NCBI GenBank assembly: GCA_029942125.1
Contig: JAPYUB010000002.1
Location: 1-43,410, forward strand
Length of the DNA stretch: 43,410 nt
DNA from: Candidatus Thalassarchaeaceae archaeon
GTDB taxonomy: Archaea; Thermoplasmatota; Poseidoniia; Poseidoniales; Thalassarchaeaceae
Reading direction: 5' to 3'
Below are positions 1,491 through 25,832 of the stretch, one piece after another. The notes under the pieces were generated by a model. The model made no database searches. It was not told where the DNA came from and saw nothing but the letters and a program-made list of their open reading frames with translations. Each line of letters begins with the position of its first letter. Within the stretch, counting starts at the first letter, position 1. The position numbers and the translations under genes are program-made.

Positions 1491-1844
1491 ATGTTCTGTC
1501 CTGAATGTGGAACGCTATCATTCCCTGGTCCCTCTGGGAATATCAAGTGCCCCAATTATGAATGTGGGTACCATGGTACTTCTGAGAACAAAGTAATGAT
1601 GGAAGATGGAACCGAAATTGACATCTCTAAAGCATCGTCAACTAGCAAGGTCGAAAGTCGAGATAGAAGGGTCATTGTCGATTCGGAACAACAGCAAGGA
1701 GTCCTTACAAGCAGTACTTACATTTGCCCTAAATGTGATTCAGATAGTGTTTATGCCGAACTTAAACAAACCAGAGCTTCCGATGAACCAGAGACACGCA
1801 TACTGACCTGTGCAGAGTGTGGACATGGTTGGCGTGAGTACTGA
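1491..1844 (+). CDS. tfs: Transcription factor S (TFS / RpoM-like zinc-ribbon protein)
   Basis: 117 aa. It has an N-terminal Zn ribbon (CPECG...CPNYECG) and a C-terminal Zn ribbon (CPKCDS...QTRASDEPETRILTCAECGHGW) containing the acidic DE loop typical of TFS/TFIIS domain III. Confidence 0.85.
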   Translation: MFCPECGTLSFPGPSGNIKCPNYECGYHGTSENKVMMEDGTEIDISKASSTSKVESRDRRVIVDSEQQQGVLTSSTYICPKCDSDSVYAELKQTRASDEPETRILTCAECGHGWREY

Positions 1845-6451: not shown

Positions 6452-6504
6452 CGAAGTCGGGTCAGGTCAATGGTTTTTCAATACGACAGTGTCAAATTCT
6501 GAAG

Positions 6505-6576
6505 TGCGGACGACGGGATTTGAACCCGTGACATGAGGTTGGAAACCTCAGGTGATAACCCCTTCACTACATCCGC
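6505..6576 (-). tRNA. tRNA-Gly (anticodon UCC), no encoded CCA
   Basis: The minus-strand sequence GCGGATG TA GTGA AGGGGTTA TCAC C TGAGG TTTCCAA CCTCA TGTC ACGGG TTCAAAT CCCGT CGTCCGC A folds by hand into a 72-nt cloverleaf. It has a 7-bp acceptor stem (one G-U), a 4-bp D stem, a 5-bp anticodon stem, the loop TT-TCC-AA and a 5-bp T stem with TTCAAAT. Confidence 0.9.
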
Positions 6577-6665
6577 GGTAGATTGAGGGGGCAGCGCGTT
6601 GGTCTTATCCAATTCGGTCCGGCCAGTCCCGCAGATTCAAGGAGTATAGACGCTCGGCACGCTGT

Positions 6666-6848
6666 ATGCATTGGCGGCGTAAAGTCGGTATCGGGATGTG
6701 TTTCATTTTCATGCCTGCAGTTGCACCCCTCTGGGCTCTCGCGTTCAATGTAGAGGTGGTGACAATGATTCGTGTGTTGACCTTACTATTTGTTCCAAGT
6801 TTAATTATCGCACTTGGGGGAAAATCCATTGAACAAGATGAAGTCTGA
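6666..6848 (+). CDS. Possible small membrane protein (two hydrophobic helices)
   Basis: A 60-aa ORF with VGIGMCFIFMPAVAPLWALAF and VLTLLFVPSLIIALGG. There is no other support, and the overlapping minus-strand 83-aa ORF looks less protein-like. Confidence 0.25.
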   Translation: MHWRRKVGIGMCFIFMPAVAPLWALAFNVEVVTMIRVLTLLFVPSLIIALGGKSIEQDEV

Positions 6849-6859
6849 ATAATCACAAT

Positions 6860-7654
6860 CTACACGACTTCAATCAGCCTTGAAAATCCAAAGGCGAATG
6901 GTCTACCATCAAGCAATTCTCGCCAATGATAGGCTTCAAGTTGATATTCATGACCCTCGTGGGATAGGACTACTTCATCGCAATTCAACACCGTGAATGT
7001 CTGCGGGGGGACGTGCATCCCCAAGCCGCATGCCTTCTGAACTGCCTCTTTGACAACCCAGGTTCTGATGGCTTCTTGCATTCCAACTCTGGCATCGTTT
7101 TCCCACAATTGTTCAAGATGCTGAAGTTCATCCCCCGAAGTCATCATCGTCAACAGATTTCGAGCCCGGGGCACATCCAGAGGTTCTGCATCCAACCCAA
7201 TTAATGAACCATTCAAAGAAATGGCGGCAATTGAAATCCCATTGGAATGTCCCAACGTTATCTCAGGAAGTGCTGGACTCAAAGGGCCACCGGCGCGCTT
7301 TCTCGCTTCATGATCCCTCCACATCAGATTCGGTTTACGATGCTCGTCCCTAACCACTCGGAGGTCGGATGGATCGAAACCGATGTCGCGAAGCAGAGTT
7401 GCCAATGCATAACGAGCGGATGCATGTTCAAGGGCGCGTTTGGGTGTAACAAAGGTCGATGCTTCGAATTGATCTACGAGAGGAACTTTGGACAGATTGG
7501 GGAGGGGCCCCCCTGGAGTATCGAGGACGACGGGAATCCAAACTGCAATTACATCGTTCAAACCACATTCTTCAGGTAGGGTAAGAGGAGATACTAGGCC
7601 TGCAGGTTGCCAATTTTCCATATAAATTCCCCAATTGGAAAATTGATTATTCAA
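6860..7654 (-). CDS. Sfp-type 4'-phosphopantetheinyl transferase
   Basis: Sfp-family motifs in order: HRKPNL (G/RKP), ITLGHSNG (SxSHS-like), GLDAEP (GxDxE) and WVVKEAVQKACG (WxxKEAxxK). The ORF starts 4 nt after the megasynthase stop. The start is TTG 7654 or ATG 7621. Confidence 0.8.
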   Translation of the reverse strand: MNNQFSNWGIYMENWQPAGLVSPLTLPEECGLNDVIAVWIPVVLDTPGGPLPNLSKVPLVDQFEASTFVTPKRALEHASARYALATLLRDIGFDPSDLRVVRDEHRKPNLMWRDHEARKRAGGPLSPALPEITLGHSNGISIAAISLNGSLIGLDAEPLDVPRARNLLTMMTSGDELQHLEQLWENDARVGMQEAIRTWVVKEAVQKACGLGMHVPPQTFTVLNCDEVVLSHEGHEYQLEAYHWRELLDGRPFAFGFSRLIEVV

Positions 7655-7658
7655 TTGA

Positions 7659-10600
7659 TTATTTTTTCTTTCTTTTGAGATTGAATCTCATTTCATCAGG
7701 CACTGGGGCCATGCCTTTGAGACGAAGCCCAGTGAGTGAGATAATCGGCTTCTGATTGCGATCGAACACCACGGCATCATGAATCGTCACTCCTCCGTCT
7801 TCTTGACCCCGGCGGTAACTTCGCACCCTCAAATCATCACGTTTGGCTGGAATCTTTAGAATTTCACATTCTTCGATTCCAATTGGGAGACTAGAGATGC
7901 CGTCCACTTCCATTGCTACCAATCCAGCATTTTGAAAACAAGCTTCGATGAGCATTGGCAAGGATTCCAAGAGAACGGGTTCCTCTTGGAATAATTGTGA
8001 ATTCGGCAATTGATTGCGCAACAATGCAATTCCATCAGCGCCCATATTATCTCGATCTGATATACCCTTAATCAGGCCACCATGGACTTGGAAGCGAGGG
8101 CCATGGAAGAATCGATCGTAGATGAAACTGGGTTGGAATGAGGCATTTCCCCTTCCTGGCGAATCGGTGAAAGATATCTTCGCATTCCGGGAGGCCCCTT
8201 CCTTGAGCAACCGGACCAAGGCCTCATGGTGTATTCTTGGCTCACCAAAAATTTCACCTTTTGAATTCACCAAATCGCTCTCAATATGACATCTTAGGGT
8301 CAACGAATTGTGATCTTGACCATTGAATTCAACTTTAACTCGAACTCGAGCTTCTTCTTTCATCAATTTGATTGGCAATCCAAATTTGACATCTGAGAAT
8401 CCCTCAAGATTACACATTGGGTAGAGCAATAGCGCACTTTGAGCAAACATTTCCATCGCCATCACTCCAGGGTGGTACGGTGTTCCGTCGATTGAATGGT
8501 CGATGAGGAATGGGAAACGTTCAGTGGAAAGTGTACATTCCGTCACAATTTCAGAATAGGGCTCATGTGTGATAATTCGATCAACAAAAGGAAACCGTTC
8601 AGTTTCTGCCATGGCGCCAGCGGTATCGGTAGGAAATTTCTGAGGGGGCGCTCTTTTGCACCCCTCATCATCCAATATCCCCAATGCGCCAGCAGCAACA
8701 ACGCGTCGTTTTCCACCAGCTAGCATTTCCTGAACGAAAATTTCGACACCGGTTTCAACTGGAATTGTCTCAATTCCTGCCTGCAAGAATACAGATTCCA
8801 CAGACCCGCGTGTTGCCATCCCAACGTCGCGCCATCCCGACCAAGCAATCGCCACTGCCCGAGGTGCGTCCTCATGATGTGCAATGCGACACATCTCAGC
8901 ATCGAGGATGTTGTTGGCCGCTGCATAATCGACCTGCCCTCCATTCCCAAACCGACCGGCGACTGAAGTGAATGCACACATAACTCGCAACTGATCTAGT
9001 TCGTCGCCTATTGCATCAATCAATGCCCTCCAACCATCAATTTTCACTGAAATGACCTTTGAAAAGGTCTCCCAAGATTTGTCAGCGACGAGTTTAGAAT
9101 CTTCAAGTCCGGCACCGTGAACAACACCAGTTATTGGGCCGAATTCTTCTCTTACAGCGGATAGAACTTTGGAAACTGATTTTGAATTCGTGACATCACA
9201 GGCATCATATAATGCTCTATTGCCAGTTGCTTGAATGTCAAGTATTGTTTGATGAATCTCTAGACTGCGAAGATGCTTGTCCCATTCACTATTCCACTCA
9301 ACCATGGTGACTTGACCAGATTCACTCTGAGCAATCATCTCCTCTCGAAGTTCCATCTTGCGATTTTCCAAAGTGGATTCATCATCTTCGAGCCATTCCT
9401 CAATGCTTGCATCCAATCGTGTTCGACCCAGGAGAATGAATGTGGCACCAGCATTGGGGCTTGCTTCTGCCACACCGACAATACATCTCGCAGTAACTCC
9501 TGAACCGCCACCGGAAACAATCCACACGTCATCGCTCTCAAGGGCACTAATCTCCTCGGTGAGATTTTCCTCATATAGGCGAAGAGCCCAACGGTTTCCG
9601 TCACGCGATAATCCCACTTCCAACGGTGAGACTCGACCGAATGCTTCCGCCCAAATTTGATGGGCCAGTGCTGTGGGGTTTGATAGCAACTCAGGATCTA
9701 CATCAACAGCACGACAACGAATATGCGGCTTTTCTTTAGCATATGATTTGACAATGCCATGTGCACCCGCTGCAAGGGCATTGAAACGGCTGCTCGAGTT
9801 ACCGTGACGGCCATCCATTGCGCTGACAGACATCACTGTTCCATCTGTAATTGAATTGAAGTGGCTATCGAGTGATTTCAACAATCCAAACAAACCATGC
9901 GTCGTTGATGTGAGTTGAACCTGCTGGGTTTCACTTTCCCACCCCACCCCTGCGAGGCGGAGGGGTGAGAGATGAAGTAAAGCTACAACATCCCCAATCT
10001 TGGCAAGATGTGCGCTGACCTCGGCAAGTTGGTCGTGGTTCCCGGGGTCAACACGTACAATATCCACAGGGCCATCTTTCTCGATTTTTATCTTAGAGAC
10101 GATACTGGGGTCGAGCATGATGCGAACGGTATCGATTCCAGCGGCTTCAAGGATGTGGCAAAGGGTATCCGCAACCCCCCAAGGATCGTCAGTTACAGCA
10201 ATGACTTTGCCATCAATATCGAGAGGTGTGGTTGCTTCTGGTTGTACGTCCTCAGCCTCTACCTGCCATCGTCGCACACCTGTTGATTCGGGTTTTATCT
10301 CTGGTGACGGAGGTTCAGGTTCAGAAACCACTGACGGTTCATCGATTGTTGCTACTTCCTCTGTATACTGATCGCCTTGATCCAGATAGGCAATCATGTG
10401 ATTGAGCGTGGGATGATTGCTCAAAACAAATGATTCGTCCACTGGCAATCCATAGAAATCACGAAGTTCAGCCATGATTTCTGCCTGTTTCACTGTATCG
10501 ATTCCAAGTTCGCCCTCAAGGTCCTGATCCAATTCAATGAAATCCTCAGGATACCCGGTATGTTTGACAACGACGGAGATTACTTTGGCTGCGACAGCAG

Positions 10601-13600
10601 TCGATGAAGGTGAACTTGGCTGAATAATTGGCGATTCCTCTATTTCAGGTTCTGATACAGGTGTTGACTCAAGCGGGGTAGAAGGAACGACGGTAGATGC
10701 ACCACCGCCAAGATAGGCAATCATGTGATTGAGCGTGGGATGATTGCTCAAAACAAATGATTCGTCCACTGGCAATCCATAGAAATCACGAAGTTCAGCC
10801 ATGATTTCTGCCTGTTTCACTGTATCGATTCCAAGTTCGCCCTCAAGGTCCTGATCCAATTCAATGAAATCCTCAGGATACCCGGTATGTTTGACAACGA
10901 CGGAGATTACTTTGGCGGATACATCATCGGAAGGCGGGGGGCTCTCCAGTTCAATCACTTCCTCGGTTACACTGGGTTCGGGTTGAGGGGGAGTAATAGA
11001 TTCTGCTAGGGGACTAGAGGGTTTTTTCCCCCTCACAAACGTCGACCAAGGGTCCCCCTGAACTCCACCGATGATCATCTCATCGGGATTGATGAAAGCG
11101 ACAAGTTTGCGCTGCAATATTCGCAGATCTGCAGTGCCACCACCTGCCTTCGATGCCCACTCAGCCACACGTTCACGATCCACTCTATCAAGGGTCGTTG
11201 CGATGCGTTTGAACATGCAAAAGGCCATCTGAGAACCAAAACCAGCACCATGTCTTACAACGTACTCAACGTCTACAGGACCGCCGGTAGAAAGACGAAG
11301 GTCGCCCAATTCGGGATCGGGTTCTTTGAAATTGGCAATAGGAGGGAATTCACCTTGACAAAGTCCGCGAATTGAAACCGCATCTTCAATTCCTGTAGCC
11401 ATTGGATGGCCTGTGAATCCTTTCGTATTCGTGATGATAACCTTTGATGCACTATCACCAAAGGTCCGACGCAGTGCTTGAATCTCAGCCGCGGCAGAGC
11501 CACCACGAGGAGGAGTGGCCGGTTCATGAGACATGAAAGAGGTTCGAGAAGAAATCGTATGACGATTCAACCCCCAATCGCGTTCCATCTTGCTGATGAA
11601 TGTGTCTAATGAGTCGGACACATGTTCAACATCAAGTCTGGTGGGATGGAATGCAGAATTGGCAAGATGCGCCCCTAGAAGTTCTACATACGGAGTGACG
11701 CCCCTCTCCATAGCGAGACTATTTCGTTCTAGAACGAAGGCAGCAGCACCCATTCCAGTCAACATTCCGCTTCGACGTGCATCGAATGGGACGCTCACTT
11801 CTTCCACGACATTTCCCATTGCATGGGCTCCAGCAGCAGTGAATCCAGGACCAAACCATGTCATCATCTCATCACTGCTTACATCATCAGCACTGATGAT
11901 AATAATGCGGTCACAGCGTCCGGTTGTCAGCCAATCTTCCGCGATTGCAATTGCTGATGGTGTTGAGGCGCAGGCATTATTTATTGCAGTGTTCGGACCT
12001 CGAGCACCGATCAATTGTGCGAATTGTGAATGACCCATGGTGAGAACCTGCAGAAGGAAACGGCGATCGAAATTTCCTTTCTCATCTGCACCATTGTTCT
12101 GTGCATGACGCATTGCTTGCTCAATACCAGGGAAACATGAAGCGAAGATGACACCAGTTCGGTCACGTTCTGATTCAGGGAGATGCCAATGCTGAATGTG
12201 ACGCTTGCCGGCTTTGTTGACCTGTTCGACTGCAATCAAAGGTAAACCTGCATCCTTGAGTGCTTCAAGTCCTGCTGCGATGGCCAAAGATGTCGTGATG
12301 TCCATAGCTTCAACAATCTTTGAATCCACACCGTATTGCTCTGCCAAATCGAAATGACCCTTGCGGCCAGCGAGTTGTGGAATCTGACTGAAATCATTGC
12401 AGGGAACAAATTCTGCAGAACCATCGGCGTGCTTGATTATTCGAACTATGTTGCGTTCCAAAAGACGTTGTTTGAGATCCTCTGAGAGTTCTGAAATAAA
12501 ATTCTCTCCGCGAATGATTCGATCAAGTGAATCCGGTGCGAAAACTTCCTCCATTCCGGGCAGGCCCAGACTGATACCACTGAAAACGAAAGGATTGTTT
12601 CGGCGGACCGCCATTGGATCAGTTTGGAGTCCGGCTGAGTGTATTGTGGACCCCTGAACAAGGACAGGTGAACCTAGGGGAACTTCATCCAACCATTCAA
12701 CCAATGCGGGAAGTGTCGTTGCATCTGTGTTGCCTTTGACTCGATAATTGGATTGAATCTTCTGATAGATTTCAGAAATCTTCTCTACACTCAATCCGAT
12801 AGTCTCTAAATCGGTTGAACCATGAATCATCCTTACAGGGAATCCGCTAACCTCCGAAACAATATTTGCGATTGCGGATTCCTTCAATTTGCGACTCGCC
12901 TCATCCTGCTCTTCATCACTAAGAACTGGGTATGGCATATCTTGTAGGGTAGCTGTGTTGCCAATTCCCGCTGTTCCGGCAATGGGCACAACGACGGGTG
13001 TTGAGATCCGAACTCCAGCTTTGAAGGCATCAGTCAAAACATCGCTATCGGCCTCTGGCATCTTTGGAATACGGCCAGAGAGGGCGTGGACAGCGAGGGC
13101 AGCATGGAAAGAGGCGATGCCACCCACCTTGGGATGATTCGTGTTGGCGACAAGTTTCGGTTTGTTTTCGAATATCTGTTCTGCGAACAAAGCGAGGGCA
13201 CGCTTGGGGCCGACTTCGACGAACAAACGCGCACCCCCATCATACATTGTCTCCATCTGTTGAATCCATTCAACAGCAGAAGCCATCTGAGGAGCAAGTT
13301 TGGCTAGAATGGCTTGCTTTGGGCTGCTGCCAGCGGGAGCAACATTCGGATACCAACCTCCATCGAAATTGGATGTGATTGGAATTTGGGGTAATCGAAT
13401 ATCCAATCCTTCAAGGAAATGGCGCAACGGCTCATTCGCCGGTGCAACTATTTGAGAATGGAAGGCGTGACTGGTCTGTAATTGTACACACGGAGTACCT
13501 GCTTCACCAAATGCCTTCATGACGCGTTTCATCGACTCTGTCTCACCGGCAATGACGGTCATTTTTGGACTGTTCTTATTGGCCGCAATGACGTAACCAT

Positions 13601-15950
13601 CCTCCGCTTCCAATACCGCTACAATCTGTTCAAACGGAGCCGAGACCGAGGCCATAATCCCACAATCTGGAACCTCGACGCTGCCCATTTCAGTGCCCCG
13701 GGCAGCCACAGCACGAAGGGCTGAATCAAAATCGAGAATATCGGCAACCATCAAGGCAGCATATTCACCCAACGAATGGCCAGCAACCATGTCCGGTTCA
13801 AGCCCATGCGCCTTCATCAAACGATGCAGGCTTAGATCGGCAGTGAGCATGGCCGGTTGAGTATATTCTGTCTGTTTGAGTTTGAATTCAGCTTCCTTCT
13901 TTTCATCATCAGAGAGATTTTCACGAAGAACGAAAGATGACAGAGTTTCACCATCAAGAACTTCAATCATAGTCTGATCCGCTTCATCCCATGTTTCTCC
14001 AATGCATCGATATCGTTTGGACAGGTCGTGGGTCATGCCAACGTATTGGCTGCCTTGACCAGGATAAAGATGAGCGACCTTGGCCTGTTCTGGCAATGGA
14101 GCCGTGTCTGTAATCATCACCATTTGCTTGGCCAAGAAATCCCATTTCGAACGGTCATCAATCGAACTTTCTAACAAATCGAAGCGCTTTGAGAGTTGAG
14201 CCCAATCATTGGCCACTATAGCACATCTAATGCCTTCGGCAACATATCCCTTACTCGCCTCTGGCAAGGCCTTGGAAAGACGCTTGCCCTGTGGATTATC
14301 ATCGAAATTTGAACCACTGAAAAGTTCACCACGGATGGTTGATAATATTATTTTCAGAGCATCTAAATCAGGTGCATTCGCCAGTAGAACCCCTCCTTCA
14401 ATCTCCTTGAGTTCATAATGTGATAATGAGGCCGTGGAAGCGATTGAGTTCGGGGCCGATGCACCAGGATTCAACCAAGCATCTCGACGTGCATCAAATT
14501 CGTTCGCGAGAAGAGAATGGAAATCTCGATCGTAGGCTTCCAAAGCACAGTGGAAATTCGTTCCTCCGAAACCGAAGGAGGAGACTCCCGCTCGCCGAGG
14601 ATGGCCGCTCGGAGTAGCCCACGGCTTGGACTCAGTAGGAACATAGAATGGATTCTGAGTCCAATCGATGTTTTCATTGGGTGTGGAGAAACCCGCACTA
14701 GGTGGAATCGTAGCTGTATCGACGGCTCGAATAGCCTTGACCAAACCGGCAATGCCAGCCGCTGCTTTGAGATGTCCAATCTGACTCTTAATCGAGCCCA
14801 CAGCAACGGTCTGCCCAGCAGGAATGTTGTCGAAAGCAGTAGACAAACTGGCCATCTCAGTGGCATCACCAACCACTGTAGAGGTCCCGTGGGCTTCAAT
14901 CAACTCGACGGTTGAAGATTCGTAGCCAGCCTGCATATATGCACGACTGACTGCTTGAACTTGACCACGGGTACTCGGTGCAGTTATGCCTTTTCCACGG
15001 CCATCGCTACTCGCACCGACGCCACGGATGACGGCTTGAATTGAATCATCATCTCGAATAGCATCCGAGAGGCGTTTCAGGGTTAGGGCGCCGGATCCTT
15101 CACCCATGACGAAGCCATTTGCCTTGGTATCAAATGGTGTGGAGTGAGTCGCTGATAGAGCACCGATGGCGCTGAATTTTGCAAAGGTTGAAGGATCCAT
15201 CGTGCGGTCGCTGGCTCCTGCAATCATCATGTCTACTTGGCGTGTCTGTAGTAATCGACAGGCATCAAGAATCGCAGCGAAGGTGGAAGCACAGGCAGCA
15301 TCTGTCGAATAATTAGGGCCTTGTAAATCAAGGAGATTGGCGACCCTCCCCGACACGACATTGGCGAGTTCACCCGGCATCGTATCTTCTGTAACAAGAG
15401 GAAGGCCAGCGAGAATAGCTTCCTTGAACGCGGTCTTTCCTTCATTGGGCATCCCTCCAGCTTCAACTGCGTGACGTGCGAACTGGTCGGCCCACACTCG
15501 GTGGTTGGATAAATTACGATTCTCACCGCCGAGGGCGTTTGCAAAGATGACGCCGGTTCTAGCCTTCGGCAATTCGCGAGCACCTTCACCCATGTATCCT
15601 GCATCTTCCAAGGCTGCCGCACTAACGGTCACAGCCCACAATTGGGTCGGATCAATCTGGGGCAGTGATCCAGGTGGAATTCTCCAGCGTCGCCAGTCGA
15701 ATTCGAATTCTTCGACCCATCCACCGATTTTTGAGTAAGTTTTGTTCTCATCGACATTCTTTGGCCCACCTTCCATCCAAAAGTCTGAGGATATCCAACG
15801 ATTATCAGGGACTTCCTTGAGTGATATTCTTGCTGACAAGATGTTCTCCCAGAATGCGTGAACATCGGGTGCATCCGGCAGCAATGCTGCGACACCGATG
15901 ATGGCAATTGGTTCAAACGGATCCTGTGGAGGTTCGTCAAGAATTGTCAA
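7659..15950 (-). CDS. Type I PKS / PUFA-synthase (PfaA/HglE)-like megasynthase, 2763 aa: KS - AT(malonyl) - ACP-like - KS - ACP - ACP - KR - DH
   Basis: A single uninterrupted ORF. Domain motifs were read directly from the translation (see domain entries). The start is TTG at 15950, preceded by GAGG and only 9 nt after the fabI stop. There is no in-cis ER or TE domain. Confidence 0.95.
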   Translation of the reverse strand: MTILDEPPQDPFEPIAIIGVAALLPDAPDVHAFWENILSARISLKEVPDNRWISSDFWMEGGPKNVDENKTYSKIGGWVEEFEFDWRRWRIPPGSLPQIDPTQLWAVTVSAAALEDAGYMGEGARELPKARTGVIFANALGGENRNLSNHRVWADQFARHAVEAGGMPNEGKTAFKEAILAGLPLVTEDTMPGELANVVSGRVANLLDLQGPNYSTDAACASTFAAILDACRLLQTRQVDMMIAGASDRTMDPSTFAKFSAIGALSATHSTPFDTKANGFVMGEGSGALTLKRLSDAIRDDDSIQAVIRGVGASSDGRGKGITAPSTRGQVQAVSRAYMQAGYESSTVELIEAHGTSTVVGDATEMASLSTAFDNIPAGQTVAVGSIKSQIGHLKAAAGIAGLVKAIRAVDTATIPPSAGFSTPNENIDWTQNPFYVPTESKPWATPSGHPRRAGVSSFGFGGTNFHCALEAYDRDFHSLLANEFDARRDAWLNPGASAPNSIASTASLSHYELKEIEGGVLLANAPDLDALKIILSTIRGELFSGSNFDDNPQGKRLSKALPEASKGYVAEGIRCAIVANDWAQLSKRFDLLESSIDDRSKWDFLAKQMVMITDTAPLPEQAKVAHLYPGQGSQYVGMTHDLSKRYRCIGETWDEADQTMIEVLDGETLSSFVLRENLSDDEKKEAEFKLKQTEYTQPAMLTADLSLHRLMKAHGLEPDMVAGHSLGEYAALMVADILDFDSALRAVAARGTEMGSVEVPDCGIMASVSAPFEQIVAVLEAEDGYVIAANKNSPKMTVIAGETESMKRVMKAFGEAGTPCVQLQTSHAFHSQIVAPANEPLRHFLEGLDIRLPQIPITSNFDGGWYPNVAPAGSSPKQAILAKLAPQMASAVEWIQQMETMYDGGARLFVEVGPKRALALFAEQIFENKPKLVANTNHPKVGGIASFHAALAVHALSGRIPKMPEADSDVLTDAFKAGVRISTPVVVPIAGTAGIGNTATLQDMPYPVLSDEEQDEASRKLKESAIANIVSEVSGFPVRMIHGSTDLETIGLSVEKISEIYQKIQSNYRVKGNTDATTLPALVEWLDEVPLGSPVLVQGSTIHSAGLQTDPMAVRRNNPFVFSGISLGLPGMEEVFAPDSLDRIIRGENFISELSEDLKQRLLERNIVRIIKHADGSAEFVPCNDFSQIPQLAGRKGHFDLAEQYGVDSKIVEAMDITTSLAIAAGLEALKDAGLPLIAVEQVNKAGKRHIQHWHLPESERDRTGVIFASCFPGIEQAMRHAQNNGADEKGNFDRRFLLQVLTMGHSQFAQLIGARGPNTAINNACASTPSAIAIAEDWLTTGRCDRIIIISADDVSSDEMMTWFGPGFTAAGAHAMGNVVEEVSVPFDARRSGMLTGMGAAAFVLERNSLAMERGVTPYVELLGAHLANSAFHPTRLDVEHVSDSLDTFISKMERDWGLNRHTISSRTSFMSHEPATPPRGGSAAAEIQALRRTFGDSASKVIITNTKGFTGHPMATGIEDAVSIRGLCQGEFPPIANFKEPDPELGDLRLSTGGPVDVEYVVRHGAGFGSQMAFCMFKRIATTLDRVDRERVAEWASKAGGGTADLRILQRKLVAFINPDEMIIGGVQGDPWSTFVRGKKPSSPLAESITPPQPEPSVTEEVIELESPPPSDDVSAKVISVVVKHTGYPEDFIELDQDLEGELGIDTVKQAEIMAELRDFYGLPVDESFVLSNHPTLNHMIAYLGGGASTVVPSTPLESTPVSEPEIEESPIIQPSSPSSTAVAAKVISVVVKHTGYPEDFIELDQDLEGELGIDTVKQAEIMAELRDFYGLPVDESFVLSNHPTLNHMIAYLDQGDQYTEEVATIDEPSVVSEPEPPSPEIKPESTGVRRWQVEAEDVQPEATTPLDIDGKVIAVTDDPWGVADTLCHILEAAGIDTVRIMLDPSIVSKIKIEKDGPVDIVRVDPGNHDQLAEVSAHLAKIGDVVALLHLSPLRLAGVGWESETQQVQLTSTTHGLFGLLKSLDSHFNSITDGTVMSVSAMDGRHGNSSSRFNALAAGAHGIVKSYAKEKPHIRCRAVDVDPELLSNPTALAHQIWAEAFGRVSPLEVGLSRDGNRWALRLYEENLTEEISALESDDVWIVSGGGSGVTARCIVGVAEASPNAGATFILLGRTRLDASIEEWLEDDESTLENRKMELREEMIAQSESGQVTMVEWNSEWDKHLRSLEIHQTILDIQATGNRALYDACDVTNSKSVSKVLSAVREEFGPITGVVHGAGLEDSKLVADKSWETFSKVISVKIDGWRALIDAIGDELDQLRVMCAFTSVAGRFGNGGQVDYAAANNILDAEMCRIAHHEDAPRAVAIAWSGWRDVGMATRGSVESVFLQAGIETIPVETGVEIFVQEMLAGGKRRVVAAGALGILDDEGCKRAPPQKFPTDTAGAMAETERFPFVDRIITHEPYSEIVTECTLSTERFPFLIDHSIDGTPYHPGVMAMEMFAQSALLLYPMCNLEGFSDVKFGLPIKLMKEEARVRVKVEFNGQDHNSLTLRCHIESDLVNSKGEIFGEPRIHHEALVRLLKEGASRNAKISFTDSPGRGNASFQPSFIYDRFFHGPRFQVHGGLIKGISDRDNMGADGIALLRNQLPNSQLFQEEPVLLESLPMLIEACFQNAGLVAMEVDGISSLPIGIEECEILKIPAKRDDLRVRSYRRGQEDGGVTIHDAVVFDRNQKPIISLTGLRLKGMAPVPDEMRFNLKRKKK
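7701..8603 (-). other. Megasynthase domain: PKS-type dehydratase, double hotdog (aa ~2450-2750)
   Basis: FLIDH(2485)SIDGTPYHPGVMAME fits the HxxxGxxxxP motif, and the second hotdog carries LIEACFQNAG (DxxxQ-like). Confidence 0.8.
8691..10208 (-). other. Megasynthase domain: ketoreductase, structural plus catalytic subdomains (aa ~1915-2420)
   Basis: The Rossmann motif is VSGGGSGVTA (aa 2146-2155). It is followed by VVHGAGLEDS and the catalytic GQVDY(2342)AAANN (PKS KR YAAAN motif). Confidence 0.85.
10383..10598 (-). other. Megasynthase domain: ACP copy 2 (aa ~1785-1856), Thr at the attachment position
   Basis: Identical in sequence to copy 1. Thr1819 is the ACA codon at 10494..10496. Confidence 0.85.
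10384..10916. repeat. Two 206-bp perfectly identical direct repeats (10384..10589 and 10711..10916), period 327 bp, encoding the tandem ACPs
   Basis: A base-by-base comparison of the two stretches shows no mismatch. The 121-bp linker between them is unique. Confidence 0.95.
10710..10925 (-). other. Megasynthase domain: ACP copy 1 (aa ~1676-1747), Thr at the attachment position
   Basis: The sequence is AKVISVVVKHTGYPEDFIELDQDLEGELGIDT(1710)VKQAEIMAELRDFYGLPVDESFVLSNHPTLNHMIAYL. It aligns residue for residue with LGxDS(L/I)xxVE of ACPs, but the codon at 10821..10823 is ACA (Thr). Confidence 0.85.
11202..12596 (-). other. Megasynthase domain: ketosynthase 2, divergent (aa ~1119-1583)
   Basis: NNAC(1327)ASTPSAI keeps the Cys, so it is not a CLF-type Gln. 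The first His motif is divergent, SH(1475)EPATPPRGG instead of HGTGT. The second is GFTGH(1515)PMATG, and the C-terminus is GAGFGSQ. Confidence 0.75.
12681..12923 (-). other. Megasynthase domain: degenerate ACP-like four-helix segment (aa ~1010-1090)
   Basis: The pattern AIANIVSEVSGFPVRMIHGSTDLETIGLS(1054)VEKISEIYQKI...LPALVEWL follows ACP helix spacing. The site reads GLS rather than G-x-D-S. Confidence 0.4.
13146..14078 (-). other. Megasynthase domain: acyltransferase, malonyl-type (aa ~625-935)
   Basis: YPGQGSQYVGM, the active site GHS(726)LGEYAAL, and the HAFHS motif (HAFH is associated with malonyl specificity). Confidence 0.85.
14535..15914 (-). other. Megasynthase domain: ketosynthase 1 (aa ~13-472)
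   Basis: The catalytic triad motifs are YSTDAAC(220)AS, EAH(354)GTSTVVGD and IGH(393)LKAAAG, followed by the C-terminal GFGGTNFH. Confidence 0.9.
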
Positions 15951-15959
15951 TATCTCGCC

Positions 15960-16751
15960 TCAGTCACTAATACTATCTGGAACCATCGTGCTGGAATATC
16001 CAGCATCGACGTGGATTACTTGTCCTGTCACGCCGGATCCAAGCGAGCTGGATAGCCAAACTGCACAACCTGCAACGTCGTTCTGATTGACATTACGTCG
16101 CAGTGGTGAATTGCGTTCTACATGGTTGAGAATATCATCGAATCCCGGAATACCACTAGCTGCCAAGGTTCGAATTGGTCCAGATGATATTGCATTGACA
16201 CGATGACCATCCTCACCAACCCGCATAGCCAATTCACGAACCCATGCCTCAAGAGCAGCCTTGGCAATGCTCATGACACCATAATTGGGAACATAACGTG
16301 TGCTGGCAGCATACGTCAGGGTGACTGTGGATGAATTCGGACCGAGATGAGGGAGGGCATGACGCATCACGCGTTGCAGGGAGTGAGCCGAGATTGTCAT
16401 CGCGATGTTGAGGGCTTCCTCTTCGACGAACAGCATATGTCGATCAAAACATTCCTTCGGTGCGAATCCGATAGCATGGATGACGATGTCGGCCTTGGAT
16501 CCAGGTGCGGCCTTCTGCCATTCATGGAAAAATTCGGTTGTGGTCTCTTCGGAGGCAACATCGATTGGGTAGAATGCTTCAATCGCCTCAAGTTTGTCCT
16601 TGAGTTGGAAAACACGGCTCATGAATCGCTTCTGATATCCGAGTATGAGTTTGCAACCGGCCTCCGCCAAACTATTGCAAATTGCCCAAGCGATTGAATC
16701 CTCAGAGGCAACGCCGAAGACCAGTGCAGTTTTTCCTTCAAGTTGCAGCAT
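15960..16751 (-). CDS. fabI: Enoyl-[acyl-carrier-protein] reductase, FabI type (SDR)
   Basis: The N-terminus is LEGKTALVFGVASEDSIAWAI. The Y-x6-K catalytic motif is NYGVMSIAKAALEAW, followed by NAISSGPIRTLAASG. 263 aa with an ATG start. Confidence 0.9.
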   Translation of the reverse strand: MLQLEGKTALVFGVASEDSIAWAICNSLAEAGCKLILGYQKRFMSRVFQLKDKLEAIEAFYPIDVASEETTTEFFHEWQKAAPGSKADIVIHAIGFAPKECFDRHMLFVEEEALNIAMTISAHSLQRVMRHALPHLGPNSSTVTLTYAASTRYVPNYGVMSIAKAALEAWVRELAMRVGEDGHRVNAISSGPIRTLAASGIPGFDDILNHVERNSPLRRNVNQNDVAGCAVWLSSSLGSGVTGQVIHVDAGYSSTMVPDSISD

Positions 16752-16762
16752 GAAACCACTTT

Positions 16763-16834
16763 CAGCCCTATGGGCTGTGGGCTTCGACCGCCGACAGGTT
16801 TTGAGGGTGCCCCTCAGAAGTGACCCTACGGGTC
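16763..16834 (-). other. Structured intergenic spacer: three short GC hairpins between the TatD-like gene and fabI
   Basis: On the minus strand these read GACCC-GTA-GGGTC (16822..16834, the TAG stop sits in the loop), GAGGG-GCA-CCCTC (16803..16815) and CAGCCC-ATA-GGGCTG (16763..16777). I saw no clear TATA box in this 74-nt gap. Confidence 0.4.
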
Positions 16835-17725
16835 AAATTCACCATATAGTGAACTGGGCCAGACATATTGAACATTGTGCATCAATTCTGCAATGTACTC
16901 TGGATTTTCGTGCTCAAGCATTGAAGATACGAGGGCATGGGTGCGTTTCGGCACGGTTTTCGGGCCGAGGACTGCTCCAGGGCGAGAAAGGTCATCCAGA
17001 TAGTCGGTCTCCATGGTCCAAGTAGACGAACAATGTCGATGTGTTTCCAACAATGTTGACAAGCAATCTTTGCCCATGCTGACTGATGATGACAAACCAT
17101 GCGTGAACAAAGAACTGACATCGGCTGGAGCATAATGGTGAACTGCACGTTTGCGTTCCAAACCGGAACGATCACAGATGGCAGCCAATTCTGCATTGGT
17201 TTGCGCTCCATTATCCTCGACGTGTAATTGAATTGGCACACCTGCCTTAGAGGCCATGTGCATGACTATCTCCAATTGTTCATTGGCAGCACCCCAGATC
17301 TCATCTGACACAGGATAATGGGGGCGGCCAACTTCACCCAAAGCAACAGCATCACCTTCCGCACAATATTCCAACGCCAGTGCCACCGAATCGATATGAA
17401 GTTGAGTTGCACTCTCAATGCCTAGAATGTGAATCTGTTTCTCCCAGACAACAGGGTGAGGACCAAGGATTACACGAACATCGATTCCAACCTCTCGGCG
17501 AACTGCATCCGCCATATCCAATGTACCGATGTAGGCTTGTTTGACGGCGTCAAGAGATTCAGGTAATTTGTTGGGGAACCCGGGCTTGTGAACCAAGCAA
17601 AAATGTGTGCCACCTGCATTGGCAAAATCCTGCGCCGCGGCGAGCCCTCGAGCGTTAATATCCAGATGTAGATGAGTATCCCAAATGGGGCCGGTCCATC
17701 GACCCTCGACGATTGTCATGTGCAT
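16826..17725 (-). CDS. TatD-related metal-dependent hydrolase (TIM-barrel amidohydrolase fold)
   Basis: The HxH motif is WDTHLHLD, with later GEVGRPHYP, IQLHVED and HHYAPAD. ATG 17725 overlaps the upstream stop as TGATG. Confidence 0.7.
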   Translation of the reverse strand: MHMTIVEGRWTGPIWDTHLHLDINARGLAAAQDFANAGGTHFCLVHKPGFPNKLPESLDAVKQAYIGTLDMADAVRREVGIDVRVILGPHPVVWEKQIHILGIESATQLHIDSVALALEYCAEGDAVALGEVGRPHYPVSDEIWGAANEQLEIVMHMASKAGVPIQLHVEDNGAQTNAELAAICDRSGLERKRAVHHYAPADVSSLFTHGLSSSVSMGKDCLSTLLETHRHCSSTWTMETDYLDDLSRPGAVLGPKTVPKRTHALVSSMLEHENPEYIAELMHNVQYVWPSSLYGEFDP

Positions 17726-18240
17726 CAACCCAATAGATTCTCATCGGAAAGTCTCTGCTTCCATCGACGAGCGGCCATTGCGACCAATTTCACATGACGA
17801 GCCTCGGTTGCAATTCCGCGACCATTGCGGAACAACAGCATCTGTATCTCGTGCCGGGTGTCGTTGATCCTTAGGCAATCCAGTTCACTATCCATGGTTG
17901 CTTCTGGGTACAAATCAGGAACTCCTTCGAGGGAAACCCGCGACTCAAAATCAAATGAGGCGACCACAGGCCCGACTTCAAAGGTCATTCCAGATTCAGC
18001 TTCTCCAAGACGCAAGAGTACCTCTTTTGCAGCGAGGTGGGCCATGTCCTGTTTACGACATCCATGAACAATGATTCGGCCATCATTATCGACCAATAGT
18101 GTTGCACGTGGAGCCACTAAAGATAGGGTGACGTATCGTCCACTTCGCTTTCCTCCAATCTCATCGACCACACGTTGAGGGTCTAGAGGTGAAGCAGGGA
18201 TGAATCTGAACAATTGATTCTCAACACGTGCTTCTGTCAT
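17725..18240 (-). CDS. Divergent TBP-fold (TATA-binding-protein-like) protein
   Basis: Two repeat signatures align to archaeal TBP repeats (LLIFSSGK.V.TGAKS....A...L): ATLLVDNDGRIIVHGCRKQDMAHLAAKEVLLRL and IQMLLFRNGRGIATEARHVKLVAMAARRWKQRL. I chose the start at ATG 18240, which forms an ATGA overlap with the upstream stop. The track ORF extends to 18309. Confidence 0.5.
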   Translation of the reverse strand: MTEARVENQLFRFIPASPLDPQRVVDEIGGKRSGRYVTLSLVAPRATLLVDNDGRIIVHGCRKQDMAHLAAKEVLLRLGEAESGMTFEVGPVVASFDFESRVSLEGVPDLYPEATMDSELDCLRINDTRHEIQMLLFRNGRGIATEARHVKLVAMAARRWKQRLSDENLLG

Positions 18241-25733: not shown

Positions 25734-25832
25734 GATGCTGCGCAGTGTTTGACCCCCATAATGGGATGGGTCGGATAAAACGGGGTGACAGCCTCAAGAG
25801 GGAGTGGCGTCGCCCAAGGTTTGGAGATAGAT

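What the first reader, a model, noticed from the sequence alone, without database searches (positions are those of the whole stretch)
6860..16751. Complete carrier-protein-dependent type I PKS/FAS-like system (FabI, KS-AT-ACP*-KS-ACP-ACP-KR-DH megasynthase, Sfp-type PPTase) inside an archaeal chromosome
**Seen in the sequence**
- Three minus-strand genes are packed with 9-nt and 4-nt gaps.
- The 2763-aa ORF carries intact catalytic motifs. KS1 has DAAC220AS, EAH354GTST and GH393LKAAAG. The AT has GHS726LGE plus HAFH (malonyl type). KS2 has NNAC1327AS. The KR has SGGGSGVTA and DY2342AAAN. The DH has H2485sidGtpyhP.
- FabI (Y-x6-K) would supply the missing enoyl reductase in trans, and the PPTase has all Sfp motifs.

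**Established knowledge**
- KS-AT-ACPn-KR-DH is the PfaA/HglE-type layout of bacterial PUFA and glycolipid synthases.
- Archaea are generally described as lacking ACP, its activating PPTase and FAS/PKS assembly lines; an ACP-independent route has been proposed for them.

**Inference**
- This is a self-contained iterative fatty-acyl or polyketide synthase. It is flanked on the same contig by archaeal core genes (PCNA/TFS/Nop5 on one side, Orc1/Cdc6 on the other).
- It could make bacterial-type acyl chains or a novel lipid in this lineage.
- I do not know of a characterised archaeal example, but I cannot search the literature here.
Basis: partly seen in the sequence, partly recalled or inferred. 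Interest (0 to 1): 0.9.

Follow-up and report, generated by a model that had tools for sequence, protein, structure and literature searches.

The report
Archaeal fatty-acid-type megasynthase with threonine carriers
The abundant ocean archaea called Marine Group II carry a conserved, bacterial-style fatty-acid/polyketide assembly line whose carrier domains have a threonine where every studied carrier has a serine; its existence was loosely known, but its product and the threonine are unexplained.

Summary
The three co-directional genes encode a FabI-type enoyl reductase, a 2763-aa synthase and an Sfp-type PPTase.

- **Architecture:** The synthase reads KS1–AT–pseudo-ACP–KS2–ACP–ACP–KR–DH.
[quoted passage not shown] The trio and its upstream neighbours are syntenic in MGIIa and MGIIb. 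Composition matches the flanks, and dN/dS is about 0.03–0.05.
- **Family:** It fits the "Type R" secondary-lipid FAS/PKS cluster of Shulse & Allen (2011): KS-MAT-"CLF"-ACPn-KR plus a PPTase. That type is widespread in Chloroflexota, Acidobacteriota and Actinomycetota, and its product is unknown. A Heimdallarchaeota homologue also exists.
[quoted passage not shown] No paper I could search describes this system.
- **New feature:** The phosphopantetheine-acceptor position of the ACPs is Thr (GIDTVKQAE). It is Thr in 278 of 280 Poseidoniales ACPs and about 96% of the wider family. Rare Ser lineages are nested among Thr ones.

Most likely function: an iterative malonyl-CoA-fed synthase making a reduced long acyl chain. 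The product and the release step are unknown.

The parts
15960..16751 (-). FabI-type enoyl-ACP reductase, the candidate trans-acting ER, 9 nt upstream of the megasynthase
   Evidence: PF13561 at 229 bits. Best NCBIfam hits are all FabI equivalogs at about 230 bits, but below their cut-offs. The NYGVMSIAK Y157-x6-K164 motif is present. It is 90-94% identical in MGIIb and 70-71% in MGIIa, always adjacent to the synthase. dN/dS is 0.03.
7659..15950 (-). 2763-aa type I megasynthase: KS1-AT-psiACP-KS2-ACP-ACP-KR-DH
   Evidence: There are hundreds of full-length Poseidoniales orthologues. dN/dS is 0.05.
14526..15914 (-). KS1 (aa 13-475), PfaA-like, with C220/H354/H393
   Evidence: PF00109, PF02801 and PF16197. 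The TIGR02813 best stretch covers aa 14-476. Motifs confirmed.
13119..14069 (-). Acyltransferase (aa 628-944), with the GHS726LGE and HAFH malonyl-type fingerprint
   Evidence: PF00698 at 115 bits. FabD TIGR00128 at 189 bits. Motifs confirmed. Substrate specificity is inferred from the established HAFH/YASH rule.
12693..12917 (-). Pseudo-ACP (aa about 1012-1086): ACP fold without a conserved acceptor residue
   Evidence: No Pfam hit. hhalign against the family ACPs gives 74% probability, E 3e-5. The AlphaFold core has pLDDT 83-89, and all top-50 PDB fold matches are ACP/PCP. The acceptor position varies among S/D/Q/T/N/G/R/A.
11151..12563 (-). KS2 (aa about 1130-1600): divergent FabF-like ketosynthase, the 'CLF' of Shulse & Allen, with Cys1327 and both His retained
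   Evidence: PF00109 at 47 bits. FabF TIGR03150 at 134 bits. Best PDB match is 4ddo FabF at 1e-25, with Cys and both His aligned. C/H/H are invariant wherever those motifs were matched in the homologues examined. dN/dS is 0.044.
10710..10913 (-). ACP1 (aa 1680-1747). The acceptor position is Thr1710 (codon ACA, 10821-10823).
   Evidence: PF00550. The Thr aligns with the phosphopantetheinyl-Ser of solved ACPs. The AlphaFold model (core pLDDT 94) puts the Thr as the first residue of helix II. Codon.
10383..10586 (-). ACP2 (aa 1789-1856). The acceptor position is Thr1819 (codon ACA, 10494-10496).
   Evidence: PF00550 second stretch. The 69-aa core is identical to ACP1, and the 207 nt are 99.5% identical.
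8751..9533 (-). Ketoreductase (aa about 2140-2400), with SGGGSGVTA and Y2342. The region before it (aa about 1900-2140) has no Pfam hit and is probably the KR structural subdomain (my inference).
   Evidence: PF08659 at 94 bits. Motifs confirmed. No Pfam hit for aa 1880-2235.
7716..8558 (-). PKS-type double-hotdog dehydratase (aa 2465-2745), with H2485xxxGxxxxP. The catalytic acid is Glu in LIEACFQ.
   Evidence: PF21089 at 29.6 bits; PF14765 at 22.7 bits, just under its cut-off. Alignment to CurJ and PksJ DH places Glu where they have Asp. It is Glu in 116 of 116 Poseidoniales motifs matched.
6860..7654 (-). Sfp-type 4'-phosphopantetheinyl transferase (probable ATG start at 7621)
   Evidence: PF01648 at 35 bits. 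GLDAEP and WVVKEAVQK motifs are present. It lies directly downstream of the synthase in every Poseidoniales locus that extends past the synthase 3' end (L022's contig ends there) and in L037/L038. In bacterial L034 it follows the ACC gene at the cluster end. No NCBIfam hit and no PDB sequence hit.

Best explanation
This is the Poseidoniales (Marine Group II) version of the 'Type R' secondary-lipid FAS/PKS. It is an iterative, malonyl-CoA-fed type I synthase.

**Proposed cycle**
1. The AT loads malonyl units onto the tandem ACPs.
2. Two catalytically competent ketosynthases extend the chain. These are the PfaA-like KS1 and the FabF-like KS2. By analogy with PUFA synthases, they probably serve different chain-length ranges.
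3. KR, DH and the co-transcribed FabI reduce each beta-keto group. The result is a largely saturated long acyl chain that stays on the ACP.
4. The adjacent divergent Sfp-type PPTase activates the ACPs, most likely by attaching phosphopantetheine to the conserved Thr that replaces the canonical Ser.
5. The chain is then passed to an enzyme encoded elsewhere, such as an acyltransferase or thioesterase.

**Shown**
- Domain identities and intact catalytic residues.
- Operon-like packing of the three genes.
- Vertical inheritance and purifying selection in an archaeal lineage.
- Family membership by architecture.
- The Thr sits at the acceptor position.

**Inferred**
- Malonyl specificity.
- FabI acting as the trans ER.
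- Thr being the modified residue.
- A saturated product.
- The release route and the cellular role (membrane or secondary lipid).
For: **Domains and motifs**
- Domain calls and motif positions.
- The KS2 Cys/His/His triad is invariant wherever those motifs were matched in the homologues examined.

**Native to the lineage**
- All 27 species-level genome hits are Poseidoniales. One exception is a mis-binned contig.
- The order big-protein / unknown / TBP-like / TatD / FabI / PKS / PPT is conserved in MGIIb (72-82% PKS identity) and MGIIa (52-55%).
- The same arrangement occurs in L032 and L037.
- Tetranucleotide r = 0.97, RSCU r = 0.91 (control 0.89), GC3 0.435 vs 0.445.
- dN/dS is 0.05 for the PKS and 0.03 for FabI. 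Every domain for which dN/dS could be computed is at or below 0.12; synonymous sites are saturated for the PPTase and the psi-ACP region.

**Family**
- 986 clusters at 50% identity match KS2 plus ACP at E <= 1e-30, with the same layout.
- Named members come from Roseiflexaceae, Bryobacteraceae, Terriglobales, Anaerolineae, Actinomycetota and Heimdallarchaeota.
- Bacterial loci add ACC, PPTase and ETF/acyl-CoA dehydrogenase genes.
- This matches the Type R description, including an ACC gene between the pfaA and PPTase homologues.

**Thr as a functional acceptor**
- Thr counts: 278 of 280 in Poseidoniales, 360 vs 16 Ser in representatives, and 67 vs 0 in named bacterial hits.
- The site is only ever Thr or Ser, whereas the pseudo-ACP site drifts freely.
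- Ser-type lineages are nested inside Thr-type MGIIb.
- One protein mixes both types.
- The Thr aligns to the phosphopantetheinyl-Ser and caps helix II in a pLDDT-94 model.
- A PPTase gene sits beside or within the cluster in nearly all loci that extend far enough to show it; the Heimdallarchaeota contig ends 0.5 kb past the synthase.
Against: - No thioesterase, reductase or acyltransferase domain or gene sits in the operon, so release is unexplained.
- The product of any Type R cluster is unknown.
- PfaA and FabI NCBIfam cut-offs are not met. The DH second-half hit is just under Pfam's cut-off, and the DH uses Glu rather than Asp.
- FabI's role rests on adjacency and conservation only. Bacterial relatives lack FabI and have ETF/acyl-CoA dehydrogenase instead.
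- From memory, not tested here: E. coli ACP S36T is not modified by AcpS. Thr as an acceptor therefore needs a specialised PPTase.
- PPTase co-variation with the Ser/Thr state is only weak, with two cases.
- No lipid or expression data were available. The only expression statement found is in a retracted paper.
Confidence: 0.7

Rival explanations
1. The cluster makes a specialised secondary lipid rather than bulk fatty acids. Candidates are a very-long-chain hydroxy or keto lipid, or a glycolipid of the heterocyst-glycolipid kind. The lipid would be glycosylated by the nearby GT2 and exported or flipped by the MsbA/HepA-like ABC transporter.
For: - antiSMASH-type surveys label Poseidoniaceae clusters hglE-KS/T1PKS.
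- The family was defined as a 'secondary lipid' synthase.
- A GT2 with a family-21 (lipid glycosyltransferase-like) hit lies within 10 kb, as does an MsbA/HepA-like ABC exporter.
- GT2-PCNA or the ABC gene lies within 10 kb of the cluster in MGIIa too.
- Tandem ACPs are typical of PUFA and hgl systems.
Against: - The GT2 and ABC hits are generic and below the equivalog cut-offs.
- Their adjacency is not fixed between MGIIa and MGIIb.
- No HglB-type reductase/TE and no hglC/D/G partners are present.
- With KR, DH and FabI all intact, full reduction is the simplest outcome.
- The ABC exporter is far more conserved (83-89% identity) than the synthase (about 53%), which suggests an independent essential role.
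Confidence: 0.22
2. The Thr-type ACPs are not phosphopantetheinylated. The synthase would then be inactive, or would work through another carrier such as CoA thioesters or an unlinked ACP. The PPTase would serve another target.
For: - The canonical Ser is absent from both ACPs.
- Archaea are generally described as lacking ACP and ACP synthase and as using ACP-independent routes.
- The PPTase is very divergent, with no NCBIfam or PDB sequence hit.
Against: - The acceptor position is restricted to Thr or Ser across more than 700 ACP motifs counted. The neighbouring pseudo-ACP position drifts.
- The ACP cores are under strong constraint and kept 99.5% identical at the DNA level.
- A PPTase is adjacent in archaeal and bacterial members alike.
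- The whole synthase has dN/dS of 0.05.
Confidence: 0.06
3. The cluster is a bacterial contaminant or chimeric join, or a very recent horizontal insertion into this particular contig.
For: - All the enzymes are of bacterial type.
- One related contig is labelled Verrucomicrobiales.
Against: - The same gene order, with archaeal neighbours on both sides, occurs in more than 12 independent MAGs of two families.
- The exact FabI sequence with TatD and TBP-like neighbours recurs in three other assemblies and one sequencing-run assembly.
- Composition and codon usage equal the flanks.
- The 'Verrucomicrobiales' contig is 92-97% identical in DNA to a Poseidonia contig.
- Poseidoniales sequences form one clade in the KS2 tree.
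Confidence: 0.01

Closest known systems
'Type R' secondary-lipid FAS/PKS gene cluster (Shulse & Allen 2011, PMC3098273)
   Same: - One pfaA homologue with KS-MAT-second KS ('CLF')-tandem ACP-KR, followed by a PPTase gene.
- It is often associated with acetyl-CoA carboxylase.
- The same host lineages turn up among KS2 relatives: Roseiflexaceae, Bryobacteraceae and Terriglobales.
- The product is unknown.
   Different: - The host here is archaeal; that paper lists no archaea.
- A FabI is fused into the operon.
- The window has 2 ACPs, against 3-6 in the description.
- A C-terminal PS-DH and an internal pseudo-ACP are recognised here.
- 'CLF' is a misnomer, because the domain keeps its Cys/His/His.
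- The Thr acceptor is not mentioned in that paper (0 occurrences of 'threonine').
PfaA subunit of bacterial and thraustochytrid PUFA synthases (TIGR02813)
   Same: - The order KS-MAT-tandem ACP-KR-PS-DH.
- It is the best NCBIfam hit (798 bits).
- It has a dedicated Sfp-type PPTase (PfaE).
   Different: - The score is below the family cut-off of 1010 bits.
- An extra KS2 and a pseudo-ACP are inserted.
- No PfaB, no PfaC (KS-CLF-FabA-type DH) and no PfaD were found in the window.
- There is therefore no isomerising DH, so cis double bonds are not expected.
- The ER is FabI rather than PfaD.
- The ACP motif is GIDTVKQAE rather than the GIDSIKRVE type (the latter from memory).
HglE-type heterocyst glycolipid synthase (antiSMASH class hglE-KS)
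   Same: - PfaA-like KS with tandem ACPs.
- This is the class label given to Poseidoniaceae clusters in surveys.
- A glycosyltransferase and an ABC exporter lie nearby.
   Different: - No hglB/C/D/G-type partners were seen.
- The GT2 and ABC genes are generic and not fixed in position.
- This is a resemblance only; membership was not tested by phylogeny.
ArsA/ArsD type I fatty acid synthase of Azotobacter ('Type P' phenolic-lipid cluster; from memory)
   Same: An iterative type I FAS of the Pfa lineage that builds a saturated long chain and keeps it on the ACP for hand-over to another enzyme. This is the working model used here for release.
   Different: - No type III PKS partner is nearby.
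- The domains are split differently.
- It was not compared by sequence here.
Proposed ACP-independent archaeal fatty acid synthase complex (bioRxiv 10.1101/2024.07.05.601840)
   Same: It addresses the same question: how archaea could make fatty acids.
   Different: That route is ACP-independent and built from archaeal thiolase- and SDR-type enzymes. That paper states that archaea lack FAS I/II, ACP and ACP synthase almost universally. The present system is a bacterial-type, carrier-domain megasynthase.

Membership tests
Type R secondary-lipid FAS/PKS cluster (Shulse & Allen 2011) | A single pfaA homologue with the order KS-MAT-CLF(second KS)-tandem ACP-KR | tested here: met
   Searches give KS1-AT-(psiACP)-KS2-ACP-ACP-KR-DH. 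The window has 2 ACPs, while relatives have 1-6.
Type R secondary-lipid FAS/PKS cluster (Shulse & Allen 2011) | A PPTase (pfaE homologue) gene immediately downstream | tested here: met
   A PF01648 gene lies 4 nt (or 37 nt) downstream. It is conserved in every locus that extends past the synthase 3' end.
Type R secondary-lipid FAS/PKS cluster (Shulse & Allen 2011) | KS groups phylogenetically with the Type R reference sequences (Roseiflexus, Koribacter, Solibacter, Elusimicrobium) | tested here: inconclusive
   The reference sequences could not be fetched by name. Indirectly, KS2 relatives at 43-55% identity are named Roseiflexaceae, Bryobacteraceae and Terriglobales. Bacterial loci also show the ACC-between-synthase-and-PPTase arrangement reported for Koribacter.
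PUFA synthase (Pfa) system | PfaA scores above the TIGR02813 cut-off | tested here: not met
   798.5 bits against a cut-off of 1010.1.
PUFA synthase (Pfa) system | Partner subunits PfaB (AT), PfaC (KS-CLF-FabA-type DH x2) and PfaD (FabK-like ER) | tested here: not met
   None appears among the Pfam-scanned ORFs of the 43-kb window. The ER candidate is a FabI.
Heterocyst glycolipid (hgl) synthase | HglE plus hglB/C/D/G partners and the HglT glycosyltransferase | tested here: not met
   Only a generic GT2 and an ABC exporter are nearby. No further KS/CLF or reductase-TE genes are in the window.
Phosphopantetheine-binding carrier domain (PF00550) | Profile match and the four-helix carrier fold | tested here: met
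   PF00550 at 66-70 bits with 2 stretches. AlphaFold model with core pLDDT 94 and helices I, II and IV.
Phosphopantetheine-binding carrier domain (PF00550) | Conserved Ser at the N-terminus of helix II as the phosphopantetheine acceptor | tested here: not met
   Thr1710 and Thr1819 occupy that position. It is Thr in 278 of 280 Poseidoniales ACPs and about 96% of the family's ACPs.
Phosphopantetheine-binding carrier domain (PF00550) | Actually carries 4'-phosphopantetheine | not testable with these tools
   Needs mass spectrometry of the ACP co-expressed with the PPTase.
FabI enoyl-ACP reductase | SDR fold of the adh_short_C2 type with the Tyr-x6-Lys catalytic pair | tested here: met
   PF13561 at 229 bits over the full length. 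Y157-x6-K164 is present.
FabI enoyl-ACP reductase | Score above an NCBIfam FabI equivalog cut-off | tested here: not met
   The best hit is 230.6 bits against a cut-off of 370. All 12 FabI models are below their cut-offs.
Sfp-type (group II) PPTase | ACPS-superfamily domain with the Mg-binding GxD..E motif and the W/F-x-x-KE-A/S-x-x-K motif, in a protein of about 230-260 aa | tested here: met
   PF01648 at 35 bits (cut-off 25). GLDAEP and WVVKEAVQK are present in a 253-264 aa protein. The N-terminal half is recognised only in relatives, as 4PPT_N or AASDHPPT_N weak hits.

The most novel reading that the evidence does not exclude
Two readings combine here.

1. The tandem carrier domains of this synthase carry their phosphopantetheine arm on a threonine (O-phosphopantetheinyl-Thr). 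So do those of the whole roughly thousand-cluster family found in Chloroflexota, Acidobacteriota, Actinomycetota and other phyla. The arm would be installed by the co-clustered divergent PPTase. That would be a natural variant of a modification regarded as strictly serine-linked.
2. In Marine Group II archaea, which lack G1P dehydrogenase, this Thr-ACP synthase would be the enzyme that supplies fatty acyl chains for bacterial-type or mixed membrane lipids.
Probability: 0.4. Interest if true: 0.85.

Novelty: new member of a known kind. Interest (0 to 1): 0.62.

Why it matters
**Archaeal lipids.** Marine Group II archaea are among the most abundant planktonic archaea, are uncultured, and have unknown membrane lipids. 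They lack G1P dehydrogenase but have G3P dehydrogenase and PlsC homologues. Current reviews state that archaea lack FAS I/II, ACP and ACP synthase almost universally. An order-wide, selection-maintained, carrier-domain megasynthase with its own PPTase and FabI gives the vague "putative bacteria-like fatty acid pathway" a concrete, clonable enzyme. That makes the lipid-divide question in this lineage directly testable. A homologue in Heimdallarchaeota extends the same test to the lineage near eukaryotes.

**Carrier-protein enzymology.** The near-universal Thr at the acceptor site of this large and wholly uncharacterised family is a testable anomaly. It could also explain why such clusters may fail when activated with Sfp in heterologous hosts.

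**Caveats.** The cluster itself is already present, automatically annotated, in public MAGs and in BGC surveys. The product remains unknown.

Tried and rejected
- **83-aa ORF as a stand-alone ACP.** I considered the ORF at 6605-6856(-) and rejected it. It has no Pfam or NCBIfam hit. Codon-periodic conservation favours a 60-aa membrane ORF on the opposite strand plus a tRNA-Gly.
- **Structured RNA downstream of the PPTase.** Rfam finds only the tRNA.
- **Chimera or recent HGT.** Rejected.
- **PPTase co-variation with the Ser/Thr state.** Ser-type loci have more divergent PPTases (23-36% vs 48-78% identity). With only two cases and fast-evolving proteins, this is inconclusive.
- **Sequence searches for the PPTase.** PDB and NCBIfam returned nothing.
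- **Tandem Repeats Finder.** It did not report the ACP repeat. Direct comparison shows a 207-nt core that is 99.5% identical.
- **Literature.** None found a paper describing this synthase in MGII, a characterised Type R product, or a Thr-linked phosphopantetheine.
- **Papers not held.** Villanueva et al. 2017 and Martin-Cuadrado et al. 2015 are not in the library, so their exact gene lists could not be checked.
- **Type R reference proteins.** The named proteins (Roseiflexus, Koribacter, Solibacter, Elusimicrobium) could not be retrieved. Only family- or order-level namesakes were found.

Full report
**1. Observation**

They are separated by 9 and 4 nt.
- KS1: C220, H354, H393.
- AT: S726 and HAFH.
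- KS2: C1327.
- KR: SGGGSGVTA and Y2342.
- DH: H2485xxxGxxxxP.

Pfam supports all domain calls above gathering score:
- Megasynthase: KS N- and C-terminal domains, AT, two PP-binding stretches, KR and PKS_DH_N.
- Upstream gene: a full-length adh_short_C2 (FabI-type) match.
- Downstream gene: an ACPS-superfamily match.

FabI has the NYGVMSIAK Tyr-x6-Lys pair. The PPTase has the GLDAEP and WVVKEAVQK motifs. Orthologues indicate that the PPTase starts at the ATG at 7621 rather than the TTG at 7654.

The archaeal flanks are real:
- Nop5 at 404-1390(-).
- TFS at 1491-1844(+).
- PCNA at 1927-2670(+).
- A TBP-like gene at 17725-18309(-).
- Orc1/Cdc6 at 34220-35467(+).

**2. Whose genome, and is it a chimera?**

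The synthase has hundreds of full-length relatives of 2650-3050 aa. The sources that name them call them Marine Group II euryarchaeote, Ca. Thalassarchaeum/Thalassarchaeaceae, Poseidoniales or Poseidonia. In a species-level genome collection, all 27 hits are Poseidoniales MAGs. The one exception is labelled Verrucomicrobiales, and it is 92-97% identical in DNA to a Poseidonia contig over 16 kb, so it is mis-binned.

Synteny:
- The gene order large protein / unknown / TBP-like / TatD / FabI / synthase / PPTase is conserved in MGIIb loci (72-82% synthase identity) and in MGIIa loci (52-55%).
- The same order occurs in L032 and in a 3.0-Mb contig, L037.
- The downstream ABC / unknown / GT2 / PCNA / TFS / Nop5 block is conserved within MGIIb.
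- The exact FabI protein recurs in three other assemblies and one sequencing-run assembly with the same neighbours.

Composition and selection:

| Measure | Result |
|---|---|
| Tetranucleotide r, cluster vs rest of window | 0.97 |
| RSCU r, cluster vs flanks (flank-vs-flank control) | 0.91 (0.89) |
| GC3, cluster vs flanks | 0.435 vs 0.445 |
| dN/dS against L006, synthase | 0.05 |
| dN/dS against L006, FabI | 0.03 |
| dN/dS per domain, where computable | 0.02-0.12 |

Synonymous sites are saturated for the PPTase and the psi-ACP region, so no dN/dS ratio was obtained for those two. The cluster is therefore an old, vertically inherited, functional part of Poseidoniales genomes.

**3.

*(a) The 'ACP*' between AT and KS2.*
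- It has no Pfam hit.
- It matches the family's ACP profile weakly (hhalign 74%).
- Its AlphaFold model has a core pLDDT of 83-89. All of the top 50 PDB matches are ACP or PCP domains, with target-normalised TM-scores of 0.65-0.79.
- Its acceptor position varies freely among S, D, Q, T, N, G, R and A.
- It is therefore a pseudo-carrier, probably with a structural role.

*(b) KS2.*
- It is a divergent FabF-like ketosynthase: best PDB match 4ddo at 1e-25, and TIGR03150 at 134 bits.
- It has the motifs NNAC1327AS, SHEPATP and TGHPM.
- Its Cys/His/His triad is invariant wherever those motifs were matched in the homologues examined.
- It is therefore not a Cys-less chain-length factor.

*(c) The DH.* It keeps the His motif, but it has Glu where CurJ and PksJ have the catalytic Asp. 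This holds in all 116 Poseidoniales motifs matched.

*(d) The true ACPs.*
- Both read ELGIDTVKQAEIM. Thr1710 (codon ACA, 10821-10823) and Thr1819 (10494-10496) occupy the position of the phosphopantetheinylated Ser.
- This is shown by alignment to solved ACPs and by a pLDDT-94 model in which the Thr is the first residue of helix II.
- The two ACP cores are 69 aa, identical in protein and 99.5% identical in DNA.

**4. The threonine is a family trait**

| Set of ACP motifs | Thr | Ser |
|---|---|---|
| 120 Poseidoniales homologues | 278 | 2 |
| Top 150 representatives | 360 | 16 |
| Named bacterial hits | 67 | 0 |

- An exhaustive search with KS2 plus the ACPs found 986 clusters (50% identity level) at E <= 1e-30. 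Most are 2900-4000-aa proteins with KS at about residue 215, AT at about 700, KS2 at about 1250, then ACPn-KR-DH.
- The site is never anything but Thr or Ser.
- Two Ser-type lineages (P0113/L032 and P0121/L038, codons TCA/TCT) are nested among Thr-type MGIIb sequences in a KS2 tree.
- One bacterial protein mixes both types.
- A Heimdallarchaeota homologue is Ser-type.
- This restriction contrasts with the drifting pseudo-ACP position. Together with the nearly constant presence of a PPTase gene wherever the locus extends far enough, it argues that the hydroxyl is functional. That would mean Thr is the acceptor.
- This conclusion is an inference. PPTases next to Ser-type synthases are more divergent than expected, but there are only two cases.

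**5. What family is it?**

- NCBIfam's best model is PfaA (TIGR02813) at 798 bits, below its 1010-bit cut-off.
- No PfaB, PfaC or PfaD partners exist in the window.
- Shulse & Allen (2011) describe a 'Type R' cluster. It is one pfaA homologue with KS-MAT-CLF-ACP(3-6)-KR followed by a PPTase gene. It occurs in Koribacter, Solibacter, Elusimicrobium and Roseiflexus. In Koribacter an ACC gene lies between the two genes. The product is unknown.
- KS2 relatives at 43-55% identity are named Roseiflexaceae, Bryobacteraceae, Terriglobales, Anaerolineae, Ardenticatenaceae, various Actinomycetota, Myxococcota and Heimdallarchaeota.
- Bacterial loci show ETF-beta / ETF-alpha / acyl-CoA dehydrogenase / KS-AT / KS2-ACP / ACP / KR / ACC / PPTase.
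- I therefore file the window's system as a Type R member on architecture and context.
- The direct phylogenetic test against the reference strains could not be run.
- That paper mentions neither archaea nor threonine.

**6. Mechanism**

Shown:
- All catalytic domains needed for a reducing cycle are intact and constrained.
- The ER is missing from the megasynthase.
- A FabI sits 9 nt upstream in every Poseidoniales locus examined, and it is more conserved (70-94% identity) than the synthase.

Inferred:
- The AT loads malonyl units (HAFH fingerprint).
- KS1 and KS2 extend the chain.
- KR (LED, a B-type-like motif), DH and FabI reduce it.
- The chain stays on the Thr-linked arm until an unlinked acyltransferase or thioesterase takes it.
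- Candidate helpers in the window are not shown to be linked. They are an AccC-like biotin carboxylase at 30202-31566, a YciA-like 4HBT thioesterase at 25785-26294, a PPAT-DUF359 fusion for the last CoA steps at 37092-38099, an MsbA/HepA-like ABC exporter at 4583-6451, and a GT2 at 2684-3781.

The main rival is a specialised glycolipid or hydroxy-lipid. It cannot be excluded.

**7. What was known**

- Rinke et al. (supplement), Besseling et al. and Villanueva et al. state that MGII lack G1P dehydrogenase. [quoted passage not shown]
- None of the texts I could read mentions a type I synthase, ACP or PPTase.
- Tully et al. discuss only fatty-acid degradation.
- A retracted long-read study lists T1PKS and HglE-KS clusters in Poseidoniaceae.
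- A 2024 preprint states that archaea lack FAS I/II, ACP and ACP synthase almost universally.
- Villanueva 2017 itself is not in the library.
- No paper on Thr-linked phosphopantetheine was found.

**8. Verdict**

- It is a new (archaeal) member of a bioinformatically known but uncharacterised family. Its presence in MGII is already visible in public annotation and is hinted at in the literature.
- The added value here has three parts: the family assignment, the evidence of order-wide vertical inheritance, and the Thr-for-Ser acceptor as a family hallmark.
- Interest is moderate to high, and it depends on experiments that are now well defined.

Noticed in passing
window 6504-6576 (-): tRNA-Gly (anticodon TCC) lies between the PPTase and the ABC transporter gene (Rfam 66 bits; ARAGORN).
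   Followed up: yes
window 6666-6848 (+), overlapping the 83-aa ORF 6605-6856 (-): A 60-aa ORF, predicted by eye to have two membrane helices, lies convergent with the PPTase. It is conserved in MGIIb loci, and the invariant columns fall every third base. The 83-aa minus-strand ORF is probably its shadow. The 60-aa ORF has no Pfam hit and its function is unknown.
   Followed up: partly
window 10383-10913 (-): The two ACP cores form a 207-nt direct repeat that is 99.5% identical, with a 327-nt period. ACP copy number among relatives (1-4 in Poseidoniales, up to 6 in bacteria) may partly reflect repeat collapse in short-read assemblies. The near-identity also suggests gene conversion.
   Followed up: partly
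window 37092-38099 (-): A fusion of a cytidylyltransferase-like domain with DUF359. From memory, these correspond to archaeal phosphopantetheine adenylyltransferase and dephospho-CoA kinase, the last two steps of CoA synthesis. CoA is the donor of the phosphopantetheine arm. No link to the cluster was shown.
   Followed up: no
window 30202-31566 (-) and 25785-26294 (+): An AccC-type biotin carboxylase (582 bits, just under the cut-off) and a YciA-like 4HBT thioesterase. They could act in malonyl-CoA supply and chain release. The thioesterase is also present next to ThiI in L018 and L032.
   Followed up: partly
window 4583-6451 (-): The MsbA/HepA-like ABC exporter is 83-89% identical between MGIIa and MGIIb, although the neighbouring synthase is only about 53% identical. 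It lies within 10 kb of the cluster in both families.
   Followed up: partly
window 19066-24957 (-): A 1963-aa protein with no Pfam domain is syntenic upstream of the cluster in all Poseidoniales loci (33-86% identity). Its function is unknown.
   Followed up: no
L031 (NZEQ01000014.1, labelled Verrucomicrobiales bacterium ARS100): The contig is 92-97% identical in DNA over 16.2 kb to a Poseidonia sp. contig (L024). The bacterial label is a binning error in the public MAG.
   Followed up: yes
L034 (6.57-Mb contig) and L035 (Ardenticatenaceae): Bacterial members of the family are split into KS-AT, KS2-ACP, ACP and KR proteins. They are flanked by ETF alpha/beta, an acyl-CoA dehydrogenase, a Fe-S/CCG protein and acetyl-CoA carboxylase. 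They have no FabI, which suggests a flavin/ETF-linked enoyl reduction step there.
   Followed up: partly
L036 (Ca. Heimdallarchaeota, JADCLS010000015.1): A 3234-aa homologue with five Ser-type ACPs lies near ACC subunits, a KAS-III-like gene and an Arf/Ras-family GTPase. This is a second archaeal lineage with this synthase family.
   Followed up: partly
L037 (3.0-Mb contig, GC 68.5%): A lineage of unknown name has the same TatD-FabI-synthase-PPTase synteny and four Thr-type ACPs. It is sister to MGIIa plus MGIIb in the KS2 tree. The cluster may therefore predate the MGIIa/MGIIb split.
   Followed up: partly
window 16752-16825: The 74-nt spacer upstream of FabI contains two short palindromes (GAGGGGCACCCTC-like and CAGCCCATAGGGCTG) and no obvious TATA-like box. 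It might be a terminator of the TatD gene or a regulator site.
   Followed up: no
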